From contig CAYIBK010000002.1 in assembly GCA_964361645.1 (NCBI GenBank), forward strand, positions 1 through 60,715: a stretch of 60,715 nt of DNA, in the 5' to 3' direction. Each line of letters starts with the position of its first letter. Position 1 is the first letter of the stretch. A program made the position numbers and the translations under genes. Origin of the DNA: an uncultured Gammaproteobacteria bacterium. Its GTDB lineage: Bacteria > Patescibacteriota > Patescibacteriia > 2-01-FULL-39-33. Below the pieces are notes generated by a model. That model did not search any database and was not told where the DNA came from. It saw only the letters and a list, made by a program, of their open reading frames with translations. Below, one piece after another: positions 56,619-60,715 of this stretch.

Positions 56619-57803
56619 ATGCCAGAAGTAAGATTGGAAGTAGAACCATTCGCTAAAATTAAAGTCATAGGTGTTGGAGGATCAGGTGGCTCAGCTATCA
56701 ATCGCATGATTTCATCTAAAATAAAGGGAGTTGAATTCATCGCCATCAATACCGATGTTCAGGCTTTGCATCATAACGATGCCAGGCATAAGCTTCATAT
56801 TGGCGAAGCCACCACCAAAGGATTGGGAGCCGGTATGGACCCTAATGTTGGCTTTCAAGCTGCCCAAGAGAGCATTAATGATCTTAGAGATATCCTCAAG
56901 GGCGCTGATATGGTTTTTATTACTTGTGGTTTAGGCGGTGGCACAGGCACTGGTGCTTCCCCGGTTGTAGCCCAGGTGGCCAAAGAGATTGGCGCCTTGG
57001 TGGTAGCGGTGGTTACTAAGCCCTTTGCTTTTGAGGGTGCTCAAAGAAGAGAGATAGCCGAAAGAGGCTATAAAGAGCTAGAACCTAGGGTTGATACTAT
57101 TATCACTATTCCTAATGATAAAATCTTACAAATTATTGATAAAAAAACATCTCTTTTAGATGCTTTCAAAACTGTTGATGATGTTCTGCGCCAAGGCATA
57201 CAAGGAATTTCTGAAGCGATTACCATTCCCGGTATTATTAATGTGGATTTTGCTGATGTGAAGGCGATTATGAATAATTCTGGTTCAGCTTTGATGGGTA
57301 TAGGAGAGGCAACTGGAGAAAATCGAGCCGTTAGCGCTGCTAAAAAAGCCATTTCTTCTCCACTCTTGGATATTTCTATTGATGGCGCTAGAGGGGTTAT
57401 GTTTATTTTAACTGGCGGTCCTAATTTAACTATGAATGAAGTTAATGATGTTGGCTCTATCATAGCTGAAAGCGTTGATACTAATGCCAAGATAATTTTT
57501 GGCACAGTTATAGACGAAAATATGAAGGATAAAGTTAGGGTTACGGTAGTGGCTACTGGTTTTGATGATAATAGACCAGTTTCTACCCGCTCTACATCAC
57601 TAGAAGAACCTAAATACCATGTCAGCCGACTTTTTTCCAAGAAAAATATTGATGACAGAATTGAAGAGGCCAAAAAATCCATTGAACAACCAAGAGAAGA
57701 AGTTTCTAAACCAGTTATGTCAGAACCAAAGTCTAATAAGCGGGTAGTTTCAGAAGAAGATGATTTGGAAATACCGGCTTTTATTCGTCGTAAAATGAAG
57801 TAA
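56619..57803 (+). CDS. ftsZ: cell division protein FtsZ
   Basis: [17 protein letters not shown], the tubulin signature [13 protein letters not shown], and a C-terminal [12 protein letters not shown] peptide. Confidence 0.97.
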
Positions 57804-57806
57804 TAA

Positions 57807-57913
57807 AGCAAGTTTCTACTTGCGTCAATAAGAATGTCATCCCGAGCGACTTTTGCCGTAGGCAAAAAAAGTCGAGGGATCTAGCAAGTTTCTACTTACG
57901 TCAATAAAAATGT
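57807..57913. repeat. 31-nt direct repeats flanking a family B miniature palindromic repeat
   Basis: agcaagtttctacttgcgtcaataagaatgt (57807-57837) and agcaagtttctacttacgtcaataaaaatgt (57883-57913) bracket gtcatcccgagcgacttttgccgtaggcaaaaaaagtcgagggatc (57836-57881). Confidence 0.8.
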
Positions 57914-57980
57914 TTACCCCGTTAAGTAGGCAATTTCGTTGCCAAAAATCCTTTCAAGATTTTTTACTTAACAGGGTAAA
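57912..57980 (+). repeat. ~70-nt palindromic element, family C, copy 2 (downstream of ftsZ)
   Basis: gtttaccccgttaag-taggcaatttcgttgcc-aaaaatcctttcaagatttttta-cttaacagggtaaa. Confidence 0.75.
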
Positions 57981-58018
57981 TACCGATTAAAGCCAGAGGA
58001 ATCTAATTTTTAATTCTG

Positions 58019-58042
58019 CTCCCCAAGGGGAGTGGTTTTTTT
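58019..58042 (+). terminator. rho-independent terminator
   Basis: CTCCCC-aa-GGGGAG followed by tgg and a T7 run. Confidence 0.6.
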
Positions 58043-58092
58043 ATCCACAGCAGTATCAATATACTCACAAAAATACCTCTAAAAGTGATTTT

Positions 58093-58121
58093 TTGACACC
58101 CCCTTGGGGTGGGGGTATAAT
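58093..58121 (+). promoter_or_regulatory. consensus sigma70-type promoter upstream of nrdD
   Basis: TTGACA, an exactly 17-nt spacer (cccccttggggtggggg), then TATAAT. About 125 nt lie between the -10 box and the nrdD ATG. Confidence 0.6.
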
Positions 58122-58247
58122 TAAAGAATACTGGAGGGAAAAATAGTTTGAAATAGATCTATGGTTTGCAAATTATTTGTTTTCGCAAAACGCTCAGGGT
58201 CTATTTTTTCTTTTTAATCTTAGCAATAAATCACTATAAAAGTTGAT

Positions 58248-60293
58248 ATGGAGACTCAAATCAAGCAAATCAAAAAAAGAGATGGCACTATAGTCGATTT
58301 TGATCAGGCCAAAATAACTCAAGCTATTTATAAGGCCTTGAAAGCGGTTAATCGCGATGATCAGGACTTATCTTTCGAATTATCGGAAAAAGTTGTCAAT
58401 ATTTTAAATAACAAATTTCACCATCGTTCTGTACCAGCCATTGAAGAAATTCAGGATATTGTAGAAGAGGTTTTAATTAAAGAAGATTTGGTTAAAGCAG
58501 CTAAGTCTTACATTATTTATCGCGAACAACATGCCAGGTTGAGGGATTTGAAGAAAATGGTTAATTCCAACGATATTATTGACGGTTATTTGAAACAATT
58601 GGATTGGCGGGTTAAAGAAAATGCCAATATGAGTTATTCCCTTCAGGGTTTGAACAATCATGTCGCTTCAGCCATAAGTTCCCATTATTGGCTCAATAAA
58701 ATTTATCCCTTAGAAATCAGGGATGCTCATGTTGATGGCAGTTTGCATCTTCATGATTTACAGCTTTTGGCTGTTTATTGTTGTGGTTGGGATCTCCAGC
58801 AATTAATGAGAGTTGGTTTTGGGGGCGTCAATGGCAAGGTTAGCAGTAAGCCAGCCAAGCATTTCAGAGTGATATTGGGGCAGGTAGTTAATTTCTTTTA
58901 TACCTTACAGGGCGAGGCGGCTGGCGCTCAAGCTTTTGCTAATTTTGATACTCTACTGGCGCCATTTATCAGATACGACCATCTTGATTACAAAGGGGTT
59001 AAGCAAGCTATCCAAGAATTTGTTTTTAATGTTAATGTTCCAACTCGTGTTGGTTTTCAAACGCCTTTTACTAATTTAACTTTTGATTTGATTTGTCCTT
59101 CTACTTTAGCCAACGAAAATATAATTATTAGTGGCTTGCCACAAAAAGAAACTTATAAAGAATTTCAAGAGGAGATGAATATAATTAATCGTGCTTTTGC
59201 GGAAGTGATGATGGAGGGCGATGCCAAAGGGCGGGTATTTACTTTTCCCATTCCAACTTATAACATCTCCAAAGATTTTGATTGGAATAATGAACTTTTA
59301 AATCCTATTTGGGAGATGACGGCTAAATACGGCATTCCTTATTTTGCTAACTTTGTAAATAGCGATATGAAAGCGGAGGATGCCAGAAGTATGTGTTGCC
59401 GTTTGCGTTTAGATAATAGGGAACTGCGAAAAAGGGGCGGTGGCATCTTTGCGGCCAATCCTATGACCGGTTCAATTGGTGTAGTGACTATCAATATGTC
59501 TCGTATTGGCTATTTATCAGAAACTAAAGATGTTTATTTTAGCCGTTTAGGACAAACCATGGATTTAGCTAGGCAAAGCTTAAAGTTAAAGAGAGCTATT
59601 TTAGAGAATTTTACCGAGAGCGGATTATATCCTTATAGTAAATTTTATCTTGGTGATATAAAAGACAGATTTGGAGAGTATTGGAAAAATCATTTTAATA
59701 CCATTGGTATTAATGGTATGAATGAATCAGTTCTTAATTTTATGAATCGGCCGCTTAGCACCGAGGAGGGCCATGAATTTGCAGAAAAAGTTATGGATTT
59801 TATGTTGCAAAGATTGGGTAAATATCAGGAAGAAGATGACGAGCTTTATAATTTAGAAGCCACACCGGCCGAGGGTGCTACTTATCGTTTTGCTAAGAAA
59901 GACAAAGAATTATATCCCGATATAATAGTAGCCAATGAAGATGCTTATAAAGAAAAAGGGGCTGCTCCTTATTATACTAATTCCACTCATTTACCCGTGG
60001 GTTATAGCGATGATATTTTTGATGTTTTAGAAAAACAAGATTTACTCCAAACCAAGTATACTGGGGGCACAGTGGTTCATGGTTTTATCGGAGAAAAAAT
60101 GCCCAACATTGAAAGCACAAAAAACTTAGTCAAGAAAATCGCCGAAAATTTTCATTTGCCTTATTATACTCTAACACCGACATTTTCAATTTGTCCTAAG
60201 CATGGCTATTTGTCGGGCGAGCACGAATTTTGTCCTATATGTGATGAAGAAATAGGCTATATTCGTGAACAAGAAGAACACTTGCCTATTTAG
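58248..60293 (+). CDS. nrdD: anaerobic ribonucleoside-triphosphate reductase NrdD, main body (ATP-cone + barrel + zinc site), lacking the glycyl-radical motif
   Basis: N-terminal ATP-cone (IKKRDGTIVDFDQAKITQAI), core motifs (MCCRLRLD, NLEATPAEG) and C-terminal CPKH...CPIC. The ORF stops before any RVxGY motif. Confidence 0.9.
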   Translation: METQIKQIKKRDGTIVDFDQAKITQAIYKALKAVNRDDQDLSFELSEKVVNILNNKFHHRSVPAIEEIQDIVEEVLIKEDLVKAAKSYIIYREQHARLRDLKKMVNSNDIIDGYLKQLDWRVKENANMSYSLQGLNNHVASAISSHYWLNKIYPLEIRDAHVDGSLHLHDLQLLAVYCCGWDLQQLMRVGFGGVNGKVSSKPAKHFRVILGQVVNFFYTLQGEAAGAQAFANFDTLLAPFIRYDHLDYKGVKQAIQEFVFNVNVPTRVGFQTPFTNLTFDLICPSTLANENIIISGLPQKETYKEFQEEMNIINRAFAEVMMEGDAKGRVFTFPIPTYNISKDFDWNNELLNPIWEMTAKYGIPYFANFVNSDMKAEDARSMCCRLRLDNRELRKRGGGIFAANPMTGSIGVVTINMSRIGYLSETKDVYFSRLGQTMDLARQSLKLKRAILENFTESGLYPYSKFYLGDIKDRFGEYWKNHFNTIGINGMNESVLNFMNRPLSTEEGHEFAEKVMDFMLQRLGKYQEEDDELYNLEATPAEGATYRFAKKDKELYPDIIVANEDAYKEKGAAPYYTNSTHLPVGYSDDIFDVLEKQDLLQTKYTGGTVVHGFIGEKMPNIESTKNLVKKIAENFHLPYYTLTPTFSICPKHGYLSGEHEFCPICDEEIGYIREQEEHLPI

Positions 60294-60437
60294 CTTTTTA
60301 GGTATTGGGTTGTAGATTAGTTTATTTATTTCTATAATATATACATATATACATAATCAATCAATTAAAATTTAATTAATTATTTTGTGGTTAATTAGTT
60401 TATATACTAATAAGCTACAAGCTAAAAAACTAATATT

Positions 60438-60596
60438 ATGGAGGAGAACAAAAATAAGGAATTTAAAAGACAACCCTGTGAAGTCTATTCCCGAGTGGTA
60501 GGTTATATCAGGCCAGTGGCTTCTTGGAATCCAGGCAAGCAATCAGAATATAAAGATCGAATGACTTACAGCGTTTGCCAAGGCCAGAGTGCTTAA
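60438..60596 (+). CDS. stand-alone 52-aa NrdD C-terminal glycyl-radical segment
   Basis: MEENKNKEFKRQPCEVYSRVVGYIRPVASWNPGKQSEYKDRMTY... contains the canonical NrdD SRVVGY...W N.GK motif. No obvious SD lies upstream of the ATG. Confidence 0.65.
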   Translation: MEENKNKEFKRQPCEVYSRVVGYIRPVASWNPGKQSEYKDRMTYSVCQGQSA

Positions 60597-60605
60597 TTTT
60601 AATTT

Positions 60606-60715
60606 ATGTTAATCGGCGGATTACAACCCGTAACTCTATTGGATTATCCGCAAAAAGTGGCAGCGATTATATTTACTATTGGTTGTAATATGCGCTGTCC
60701 TTTTTGTTATAATCC
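60606..60715 (+). CDS. nrdG: anaerobic RNR activating radical SAM protein NrdG (5' part, truncated by the window end)
   Basis: MLIGGLQPVTLLDYPQKVAAIIFTIGCNMRCPFCYN... has the CxxxCxxC cluster and lies directly downstream of nrdD. Confidence 0.85.
   Translation, partial: MLIGGLQPVTLLDYPQKVAAIIFTIGCNMRCPFCYN

What the first reader, a model, noticed from the sequence alone, without database searches (positions are those of the whole stretch)
60230..60596. Split anaerobic ribonucleotide reductase: glycyl-radical motif on a separate 52-aa ORF
The 681-aa NrdD ORF contains the ATP-cone, the catalytic barrel and the C-terminal zinc site (CPKH...CPIC). It terminates (...EEIGYIREQEEHLPI*) before any RVxGY glycyl-radical motif. 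About 140 nt of very AT-rich DNA follows. After that, a 52-aa ORF begins (MEENKNKEFKRQPC-EVYSRVVGYIRPVASWNPGKQSEYKDR...). This is exactly the conserved NrdD C-terminal radical loop, and nrdG follows it directly. The enzyme is therefore either assembled from two polypeptides, analogous to free-standing glycyl-radical 'spare part' proteins such as GrcA/YfiD for pyruvate formate-lyase, or the gene is interrupted by an intervening sequence or a recent disruption. The tail of the large ORF (IGYIRE) resembles the true motif (VGYIRP), hinting at a duplication or insertion event at this point. The small ORF has no obvious Shine-Dalgarno sequence.
Basis: partly seen in the sequence, partly recalled or inferred. 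Interest (0 to 1): 0.6.

Follow-up and report, generated by a model that had tools for sequence, protein, structure and literature searches.

The report
Two-piece anaerobic ribonucleotide reductase (split NrdD)
This ultra-small bacterium encodes its oxygen-sensitive DNA-precursor enzyme in two pieces, with the radical-carrying tip made as a separate 52-residue protein; this layout is the commoner one in its phylum, phages carry the small piece alone, and I found no paper describing it.

Summary
A 681-aa NrdD ORF (58248-60293) ends just after its zinc site. A 144-nt AT-rich spacer with eight in-frame stops follows, then a 52-aa ORF (60438-60596) carrying the RVVGY glycyl-radical loop, then nrdG.

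It is not an artefact, pseudogene or intron. All 51 split loci examined have the same layout. Spacers run from overlap to 201 nt, in any frame, and many relatives have a canonical Shine-Dalgarno before the small ORF. In a 401-genome Patescibacteria sample, 69 radical-loop hits lie in short frames and 40 in one-piece genes. In 24 of 27 split-bearing relatives no class I/II reductase was found, so there the split enzyme is probably the only one.

Split forms carry a signature that one-piece forms lack: CxxC-D-x-E-x-G on the large chain and R-[QT]-x-C on the small chain. The large-chain tree rejects a single clade of split forms.

71 of 78 viral-contig loci hold the small chain without a large chain nearby. 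Five whole phage records checked, three of them estimated complete, hold only the small chain.

Earlier notes of this scan describe split NrdD in other phyla.

The parts
58093..58121 (+). Promoter-like site TTGACA-17-TATAAT ahead of nrdD; probable start of one transcript covering both chains and nrdG
   Evidence: 12 of 12 consensus matches. No promoter-like or terminator-like site on the + strand between the two ORFs. This is a consensus match only; transcription was not tested.
58248..60293 (+). nrdD large chain (681 aa): ATP-cone, catalytic barrel and zinc site, but no glycyl-radical loop
   Evidence: ATP-cone aa 7-96; NRDD profile 1-533/562; PRK08270 2-652/684 at 1036 bits; the model's best fold matches are the solved NrdD structures.
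59391..59402 (+). Finger-loop motif M382-C383-C384-R385 (catalytic cysteine pair)
   Evidence: S381 M382 C383 C384 are invariant in alignment A3. The double-cysteine MCCR type is as described in PMC9669993.
60192..60242 (+). Zinc-site motif C649-x2-H652-x9-C662-x2-C665
   Evidence: C649, C662, P663 and C665 are invariant in A3 and H652 is nearly invariant. T. maritima NrdD binds Zn through a similar Cys/His/Cys/Cys motif, CxxxHx6CxxC (PMC4493059). Metal binding was not tested here.
60243..60290 (+). Large-chain tail D666-E-E-I-G670-YIREQEEHLPI; D-x-E-x-G is the signature of split forms
   Evidence: One search counted 49 tails: D at +1 in 49, G at +5 in 49, E at +3 in 46. L042 also fits by eye. 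D at +1 occurs in 0 of 19 one-piece relatives.
60294..60437 (+). Non-coding spacer: 144 nt, 17% G+C, 8 in-frame stops
   Evidence: No Rfam match. Fold z-score -1.5. Not repeated elsewhere in the genome. Spacers in relatives range from overlap to 201 nt and are not conserved.
60438..60596 (+). nrdD small chain (52 aa): head MEENKNKEFK, signature R11-Q-P-C14, radical loop R19-V-V-G22-Y, C-terminal helix
   Evidence: R11 C14 E15 S18 R19 V21 G22 Y23 R25 P26 W30 K34 E37 R41 are invariant in 120 free-standing homologues. dN/dS is 0.03-0.19.
60501..60503 (+). Codon of Gly22, the predicted radical site
   Evidence: Read. It aligns with the invariant G of the RVxGY loop in one-piece NrdDs (G752 of the read-through chain).
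60606..60715 (+). 5' part of nrdG (radical-SAM activase); it runs off the window into a 100-N scaffold gap
   Evidence: The first 36 aa are 91% identical to the complete 230-aa NrdG of a same-genus relative, which matches Pfam Radical_SAM at E 4.7e-26.

Best explanation
This is a working class III ribonucleotide reductase made of two separately translated chains. The 681-aa chain supplies the ATP-cone, the catalytic barrel with the Cys383/Cys384 finger loop, and the zinc site. The 52-aa chain supplies only the glycyl-radical hairpin (Gly22) and the helix after it.

Inferred mechanism:
- All three genes are transcribed together from the promoter at 58093.
- The small ORF is initiated on its own ATG.
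- NrdG abstracts a hydrogen from Gly22.
- The hairpin sits in the barrel next to the finger-loop cysteines, as the C-terminal domain does in one-piece NrdD.
- The cut lies in the 4-6-residue linker between the zinc site and the hairpin.
- The two new ends carry motifs found only in split forms (CxxC-D-x-E-x-G and R-[QT]-x-C). These probably hold the chains together.

What is shown: the gene layout, its conservation, purifying selection, independent start signals, likely status as the only reductase in many relatives, and free-standing small chains in phages.

What is inferred: physical assembly, radical formation on the small chain, and the role of the two motifs.
For: - The two ORFs tile the NrdD profiles end to end.
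- All 51 split loci examined have a large ORF directly followed by a small ORF. Large-ORF stops are 41 TAA, 5 TAG and 5 TGA. Spacers run from -35 to +201 nt in all three relative frames. At least 15 loci have GGAGG-type SD sites 5-12 nt before the small ATG.
- In the phylum sample, 109 of 401 genomes have a hit. Of 112 hits, 69 lie in frames under 130 aa and 40 in frames of 600 aa or more.
- 180 free-standing 40-69-aa homologues exist in public protein sets.
- dN/dS of the small ORF is 0.03-0.19.
- Among 41 relatives, 26 of 29 NrdD-bearing genomes have no PF02867 (class I/II) match. 24 of these 26 are split, and several are 98-100% complete.
- The breakpoint signature is strictly tied to the split state.
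- In the AlphaFold model of the read-through chain, the spacer-derived linker has pLDDT below 50. The small-chain part folds as a hairpin plus helix at block-mean pLDDT 74-88 over residues 741-770. Modelled alone, the small chain forms no hairpin.
- 71 of 78 viral-contig loci hold the small chain with no large chain within the roughly 4 kb fetched on each side, less at contig ends. In five whole viral records, three of them estimated complete, the NRDD profile matches only its tip.
- Three relatives carry a second, free-standing small ORF.
Against:
- The window's own genus also has a class I/II-type reductase (G000:C3:49682-51133). NrdD is therefore not essential in this particular genome, and one genus member has no radical-loop hit.
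- nrdG is incomplete in this assembly because of a scaffold gap.
- Patescibacteria may also salvage deoxynucleosides, which weakens the 'only reductase, so it must work' argument.
Confidence: 0.85

Rival explanations
1. Assembly or sequencing artefact, or a recent strain-specific pseudogene: the gene is really continuous or is dead.
For: This assembly is a scaffolded MAG with many 100-N gaps, one of them immediately after the window. Reads could not be checked.
Against: The same layout occurs in 51 independently assembled loci and 180 database proteins. Both parts are under purifying selection. The motifs at the new ends are conserved, and real stop codons and many in-frame stops are present.
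Confidence: 0.02
2. The two ORFs are rejoined at the RNA or translation level (self-splicing intron, ribosomal bypass, stop read-through) to give a one-piece NrdD.
For: In the window the two ORFs happen to share a frame. Phage T4 nrdD is known (my own knowledge) to carry a group I intron.
Against: - The spacer is 144 nt here but ranges from overlap to 201 nt in relatives. It is unconserved and falls in all three relative frames.
- The window's spacer has 8 in-frame stops.
- Rfam finds no match and the fold z-score is -1.5.
- A conserved ATG and canonical SD sites precede the small ORF in many lineages.
- Phages and some genomes carry the small ORF far from any large chain.
Confidence: 0.03
3. 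The chains are ligated after translation (split-intein-like trans-splicing), so the mature enzyme is one chain.
For: Inteins do occur in this gene family: an intein with a LAGLIDADG domain sits at the catalytic Cys pair in several relatives. The small chain has an invariant Cys just before the conserved core.
Against: The extra tail (9-46 aa) and head (about 8-20 aa) are far too short for intein halves. They show no intein blocks or Pfam intein match. The residues before the Cys are R-[QT]-x and not H-N.
Confidence: 0.03
4. The large chain works without the small chain, or is inactive, and the small ORF serves another partner or purpose.
For: Small chains occur alone in phages and as second copies in genomes. 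The window's genus has another reductase.
Against: The large chain lacks any radical glycine but keeps the finger-loop cysteines, zinc site and ATP-cone under strong constraint (dN/dS 0.01-0.08). The small ORF always sits between it and nrdG. Matching signature motifs appear on both new ends.
Confidence: 0.05

Closest known systems
One-piece class III ribonucleotide reductase NrdD with activase NrdG (phage T4 1H78, Thermotoga maritima 4COI/4U3E, Prevotella copri 8P23, Streptococcus thermophilus 9D3X)
   Same: Same family and fold. It shares the ATP-cone, the MCCR finger loop, a Cys/His/Cys/Cys zinc motif like T. maritima's (PMC4493059), the RVxGY radical loop and the adjacent nrdG.
   Different: All solved and described enzymes carry the radical glycine on the same chain as the barrel. 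Here the chain is cut in the 4-6-residue linker after the zinc site, and the radical loop is a separate 52-aa protein. New conserved motifs appear at both ends.
GrcA/YfiD of E. coli and Y06I of phage T4: autonomous glycyl-radical cofactors for pyruvate formate-lyase
   Same: A small free-standing protein carrying a glycyl-radical loop that works with a barrel encoded elsewhere. A phage-borne version exists.
   Different: GrcA is a spare for an intact enzyme that has its own glycine. It belongs to the PFL branch (Pfam Gly_radical), which the small chain here does not match. Here the small chain is the only glycine carrier. [quoted passage not shown]
Split class II ribonucleotide reductase NrdJa/NrdJb of Pseudomonas aeruginosa (PMC4520616)
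   Same: A ribonucleotide reductase catalytic chain encoded as two consecutive genes (title and abstract).
   Different: It is a different class (B12-dependent, no glycyl radical) and a separate case with no radical-bearing small chain. I did not read the paper's body.
Interrupted reductase genes in phages: group I intron in T4 nrdD, and homing-endonuclease-split nrdA of Aeromonas phage Aeh1 (my own knowledge, not checked here)
   Same: Reductase genes in pieces.
   Different: Those are interrupted by a mobile element (an intron or endonuclease gene). Here the spacer is short, variable, non-coding and has no RNA family match.

Membership tests
Class III ribonucleotide reductase NrdD (Pfam PF13597, NCBIfam PRK08270/NF006126) | Full-length match to the family profile | tested here: met
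   Met only by the two ORFs together. PF13597 matches 1-533 and 531-562 of 562. PRK08270 matches 2-652 (1036 bits, cut-off 548) and 649-683 of 684.
Class III ribonucleotide reductase NrdD | C-terminal glycyl-radical loop RVxGY on the catalytic chain | tested here: not met
   The large chain ends 16 residues after the zinc site without the loop. The loop (R19-V-V-G22-Y23) is on the 52-aa ORF. This is the point of difference.
Class III ribonucleotide reductase NrdD | Finger-loop cysteine(s) and zinc-binding motif | tested here: met
   M382-C383-C384-R385 and C649-x2-H652-x9-C662-x2-C665 are invariant or nearly invariant in A3. This is by sequence only; metal binding was not tested.
Class III ribonucleotide reductase NrdD | Adjacent radical-SAM activase NrdG | tested here: met
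   nrdG starts 9 nt after the small ORF. It is cut by a scaffold gap in this assembly and complete in relatives (230 aa, Radical_SAM E 4.7e-26).
Class III ribonucleotide reductase NrdD | Glycyl radical formation and NTP reduction | not testable with these tools
   Needs anaerobic biochemistry (EPR, activity assay).
GrcA/YfiD autonomous glycyl-radical cofactor (Pfam PF01228 Gly_radical) | Match to the PFL-type glycyl-radical domain | tested here: not met
   The small ORF matches only PF13597 NRDD; no PF01228 hit at E up to 0.01.
GrcA/YfiD autonomous glycyl-radical cofactor | Acts as a spare beside a partner enzyme that has its own radical glycine | tested here: not met
   The partner large chain has no glycine loop. 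A GrcA-like situation does exist in one relative: L043 has a one-piece NrdD plus an extra 89-aa zinc-ribbon + radical-loop ORF.
Self-splicing intron (group I/II) interrupting nrdD | Conserved structured RNA between the exons | tested here: not met
   No Rfam match at E up to 1. Fold z-score -1.5. Spacer length ranges from overlap to 201 nt and the sequence is unconserved.
Split intein | Intein N- and C-halves flanking the break | tested here: not met
   No intein domain on the large ORF. The tail and head are too short, and there is no H-N before the Cys.

The most novel reading that the evidence does not exclude
The small chain is a detachable, consumable radical subunit, in effect a 'beta subunit' for class III reductase. 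NrdG would activate it off the enzyme. It would dock through the D-x-E-x-G / R-x-x-C ends. After oxygen cleaves it at the glycine, a fresh chain would replace it without loss of the 681-aa body. Phages, and extra genomic copies, would supply their own small chain to keep or take over the host's reductase during infection.
Probability: 0.25. Interest if true: 0.85.

Novelty: new variant of a known kind. Interest (0 to 1): 0.7.

Why it matters
Class III ribonucleotide reductase is described in the papers I read as a single chain that carries its own radical glycine. Large family surveys discarded proteins under 400 residues (PMC9531940), so they would have dropped the small chains and kept the large ones.

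Several consequences follow if the two chains do assemble:
- The radical carrier of an essential enzyme is a separate roughly 6-kDa protein in much of a major bacterial phylum.
- Questions about activation and repair become directly testable. How does the activase reach the glycine? Can the radical carrier exchange? Is oxygen damage repaired by replacing only the small chain?
- Phage genomes that carry only the small chain suggest a very cheap way for a virus to act on host DNA-precursor supply.
- Annotation pipelines currently name the large chain as a complete reductase and often leave the small one unnamed.

Tried and rejected
- **Rfam scan of the region.** It gave only a chance microRNA hit inside nrdG.
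- **Zinc-ligand idea.** I considered that the invariant Cys14 of the small chain is the fourth zinc ligand linking the chains. T. maritima NrdD uses Cys/His/Cys/Cys all on one segment and the same four ligands are present on the large chain here. The idea has no support and stays speculative.
- **Duplication remnant (IGYIRE).** Rejected from the alignment of 51 tails and 19 one-piece linkers.
- **Alternative genetic code.** I considered that the break in L051 and its kin was a recoded stop. The stop there is TAA, and stops overall are mostly TAA.
- **Alignments for modelling.** The first two MAFFT alignments (A1, A2) misplaced the radical loop onto the large-chain tail or scattered the small chains. 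Only A3 (the read-through chain plus one-piece homologues) was correct and was used.
- **Structure models.** They return no coordinates, so inter-chain contacts could not be measured.
- **Spacer as a mobile element.** No repeat family was found in the genome.
- **Literature.** Five searches and eight papers read found no description of a split NrdD. The library holds open-access papers and preprints only.
Full report
**What is there.** The + strand of 57800-60715 holds the following:
- a consensus promoter-like site at 58093-58121;
- a 681-aa ORF at 58248-60293;
- a 144-nt spacer with 17% G+C;
- a 52-aa ORF at 60438-60596;
- nine bases later, the start of nrdG at 60606.

The large ORF has an ATP-cone (aa 7-96). 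It matches Pfam NRDD positions 1-533 of 562 and NCBIfam PRK08270 positions 2-652 of 684, at 1036 bits. The small ORF matches NRDD 531-562 and PRK08270 649-683. The two ORFs therefore tile one NrdD profile with no loss. The large chain ends 16 residues after its zinc motif (C649-x2-H652-x9-C662-x2-C665). The small chain has an 11-residue head before the conserved core, which holds the loop R19-V-V-G22-Y23. Both ORFs lie in the same frame, but the spacer has eight in-frame TAA/TAG codons.

**Not an artefact, pseudogene or intron.** In twelve loci from the window's own family the layout is the same: large ORF, spacer, small ORF, nrdG. The spacers there are 4-144 nt, unconserved, and fall in all three relative frames.

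I then sampled 401 genomes of the phylum. 109 had a radical-loop match. Of 112 matches outside the window, 69 lay in open frames under 130 aa, 40 in frames of 600 aa or more, and 3 in between. I fetched 60 of these loci. Every short-frame hit lay directly behind a large NrdD ORF.

Across the 51 split loci:
- the large-ORF stops are 41 TAA, 5 TAG and 5 TGA, so no alternative code explains them;
- spacers run from a 35-nt overlap to 201 nt;
- at least 15 loci have a GGAGG-type Shine-Dalgarno 5-12 nt before the small ATG.

The window's family has no such site. In this genome only about 11% of long ORFs have GGAG upstream, so its absence is the rule.

Further points:
- Rfam finds nothing in the spacer.
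- The spacer's fold is no better than shuffles, z -1.5.
- The spacer is not a repeat.
- No + strand promoter or terminator pattern lies between the ORFs.
- dN/dS of the small ORF is 0.03-0.19, against 0.01-0.08 for the 3' part of the large ORF.
- Public protein sets hold 180 free-standing 40-69-aa homologues. Where named, they come from Candidatus Buchananbacteria, Dojkabacteria, Parcubacteria and 'Patescibacteria group'.
- The large chains are annotated simply as 'ribonucleoside triphosphate reductase'.

**It is probably functional.** Among 41 relatives, 29 have the radical loop and 14 have a class I/II large subunit (PF02867). Only three genomes have both, all in the window's genus (G000, G001 and G003). 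So 26 of 29 NrdD-bearing genomes show no other reductase, and 24 of those are split. Several are 98-100% complete. The two reductase types are almost complementary across the class. In the window's own genome a 790-aa-frame PF02867 gene exists at G000:C3:49682-51133, so here NrdD is one of two reductases.

**Where the cut is, and what is new at the ends.** One-piece relatives read ...CPxC-(4 or 6 residues)-EVYSRVVGY.... This holds inside the phylum and in Caldicellulosiruptor, Thermoanaerobacterium, Bathyarchaeia and others at 66-68% identity.

Split forms read ...CPxC-D-x-E-x-G-(Y)+variable tail, then stop. The small chain is Met + variable head + R-[QT]-x-C-EVYSRVVGY.

Counts:
- Of 49 tails counted, 49 have D at +1, 49 have G at +5 and 46 have E at +3. 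L042 also fits by eye.
- Of 51 small chains, 50 have R at -4 and C at -1.
- Of 19 one-piece linkers, 0 have D at +1 and 15 have the Cys at -1.

In 120 free-standing homologues, R11 and C14 are invariant. It is therefore not a duplication remnant. I read the two motifs as the likely inter-chain interface. That is inference.

**Structure models.** I translated through the spacer with TAA=G and TAG=S, so that the junk acts as a tether. I aligned this chain with 76 one-piece homologues (A3, checked by its invariant columns).

AlphaFold2 gave mean pLDDT 78.6. The tether (673-738) was below 50. The small-chain part formed a hairpin (745-750 and 753-756, with Gly at the tip) plus a helix (762-770), with 10-residue block means of 81, 74 and 88 over residues 741-770. 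Foldseek's best matches are the solved NrdDs.

The small chain modelled alone, with 120 homologues, gave pLDDT 70 and no hairpin. This fits a loop that folds only against the barrel. No coordinates are returned, so contacts are not shown.

**History.** In a maximum-likelihood tree of large chains with ten outside-phylum sequences, the window belongs to group A, which has 29 split rows. Holding group A together is not rejected (p-AU 0.58).

Group B is a second set of 8 split rows whose small chains read EVWTRVMGYHRP. It is sister to four one-piece Patescibacteria genes in another part of the tree. Forcing all split rows into one clade is rejected (delta lnL 239, p 1e-75). So is forcing A+B together (delta lnL 228).

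A third case, L051, is cut inside the second CxxC (...GEHYEC...* / MESKCGKKTLVYSR). Since one-piece genes are the only form among the outside-phylum homologues compared here, I infer at least two, and probably three, fissions at or next to the same linker. Groups A and B have the same end motifs.

Caveats: the groups were named after seeing the sequences and the tree, the trees are quick searches, and the root is not inferred.

**The small chain travels alone.** A scan of viral contigs found 78 loci. 71 of the 77 hits classified (in 78 loci) are small ORFs with no large chain within the fetched flank, about 4 kb on each side and less at contig ends. Of 52 distinct ORFs, 35 carry the R/C signature and 13 carry an N-terminal double-CxxC zinc ribbon. 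Only one locus has an nrdG-like gene.

In five whole viral records, three of them estimated complete and two with terminal repeats, the NRDD profile matches only its tip (positions 510 or 530 to 562), in frames of 48-87 aa. L074 has baseplate, adaptor, tail-terminator and tail genes around the small ORF.

Three relatives of the window (G007, G011, G018) have a second small ORF away from any large chain or nrdG. These copies make sense only if the small chain works in trans.

**Comparison with what is known.** Four searches gave only one-piece enzymes or unrelated matches. Reading the main reductase phylogeny and structure papers gave the same result.

[quoted passage not shown] One large survey removed all sequences under 400 residues.

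The nearest precedents are GrcA/YfiD, which is a spare, belongs to the PFL branch and is not matched by the small ORF, and the split class II NrdJa/NrdJb of P. aeruginosa (PMC4520616).

Earlier notes of this scan report split NrdD in spirochaetes, proteobacteria, archaea, Caldisericota and phages, and also found no paper. I used them as leads. I re-tested the phage point and the literature point here.

**Limits.** There are no reads, transcripts or proteins. Genome handles are anonymous. The library is open access only. nrdG in this assembly is cut by a 100-N scaffold gap right after the window.

Noticed in passing
G000:C2:60716-60815 (just past the window end; L001:1779-1878): A 100-N scaffold gap cuts nrdG after codon 36, and the rest of nrdG is not found anywhere in the assembly (tblastn). 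The assembly has many such gaps. Relatives have a complete 230-aa NrdG.
   Followed up: yes
G000:C3:49682-51133: The window's genome, and its genus (4 of 4 genomes), also encode a class I/II-type reductase large subunit (PF02867, 790-aa frame). Only one of the other 20 genomes of the family has a PF02867 match (G020, which has no radical-loop hit). One genus member (G002, 100% complete) has no NrdD radical-loop hit.
   Followed up: partly
window 60438-60449; L002-L012 small-ORF starts: All 12 small ORFs of the window's family start ATGGA(G/A)G... (Met-Glu-Gly/Glu-Glu). That start occurs in only 0.8% of long ORFs in this genome. It is SD-like sequence sitting on and after the start codon. No explanation found.
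   Followed up: partly
L043:2952-3218 (G117:C2): A one-piece NrdD is followed 122 nt later by an 89-aa ORF with a double-CxxC zinc ribbon plus a radical loop nearly identical to the enzyme's own (Pfam NRDD 510-562). This is a true GrcA-like spare-part candidate for class III reductase.
   Followed up: partly
L039 (G384:C1:134734-140746): A one-piece nrdD (774-aa frame, long branch, loop reads VVGK instead of VVGY) sits in tandem with a split nrdD. The split gene's large chain appears to lack the ATP-cone.
   Followed up: no
L051 (G091:C1:731586-735696): A different breakpoint. The large chain ends ...GEHYECNQVLSSKSK (stop TAA) and the small chain starts MESKCGKKTLVYSRVVGY. The second zinc-ligand pair would therefore be shared between the chains. 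Four more genomes of that family (f66) also have short frames.
   Followed up: partly
L013:787-1776; also L017, L021, L032, L034, L055 and the 1003-1006-aa proteins P0133, P0144, P0173: Large chains of several lineages carry an insertion of about 330 aa (about 870 aa in L055). In L013, L017 and L021 it sits exactly between the two catalytic cysteines (C383|C384); the others were not placed precisely. In L013 it matches Intein_splicing (30 bits, under the cut-off) and LAGLIDADG_3 (27.6 bits, over the cut-off).
   Followed up: partly
L151 (G007:C3), L153 (G011:C43), L155 (G018:C35): These are second, free-standing small-chain genes in three relatives, away from any large chain or nrdG within the fetched flanks. 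They may be prophage-borne or spare copies.
   Followed up: partly
L073-L150 (IMG/VR contigs): 71 stand-alone NrdD-type radical-loop ORFs lie on viral contigs. One record (G440) has two copies. L074 carries its copy among tail and connector genes.
   Followed up: partly
window 60570-60593; alignment A4 columns 101-127: Many small chains end in a cysteine pair (CGC, or C-x3-4-C-A). This recalls the redox tails of class I/II reductases. The window has ...VCQGQSA where a near relative (P0004) has ...VCQGQCA.
   Followed up: no
L001:2606-2866 (G000:C2, about 1.8 kb past the window): An 86-aa GIY-YIG nuclease-domain ORF (Pfam E 5.7e-19) lies downstream of the gap.
   Followed up: no
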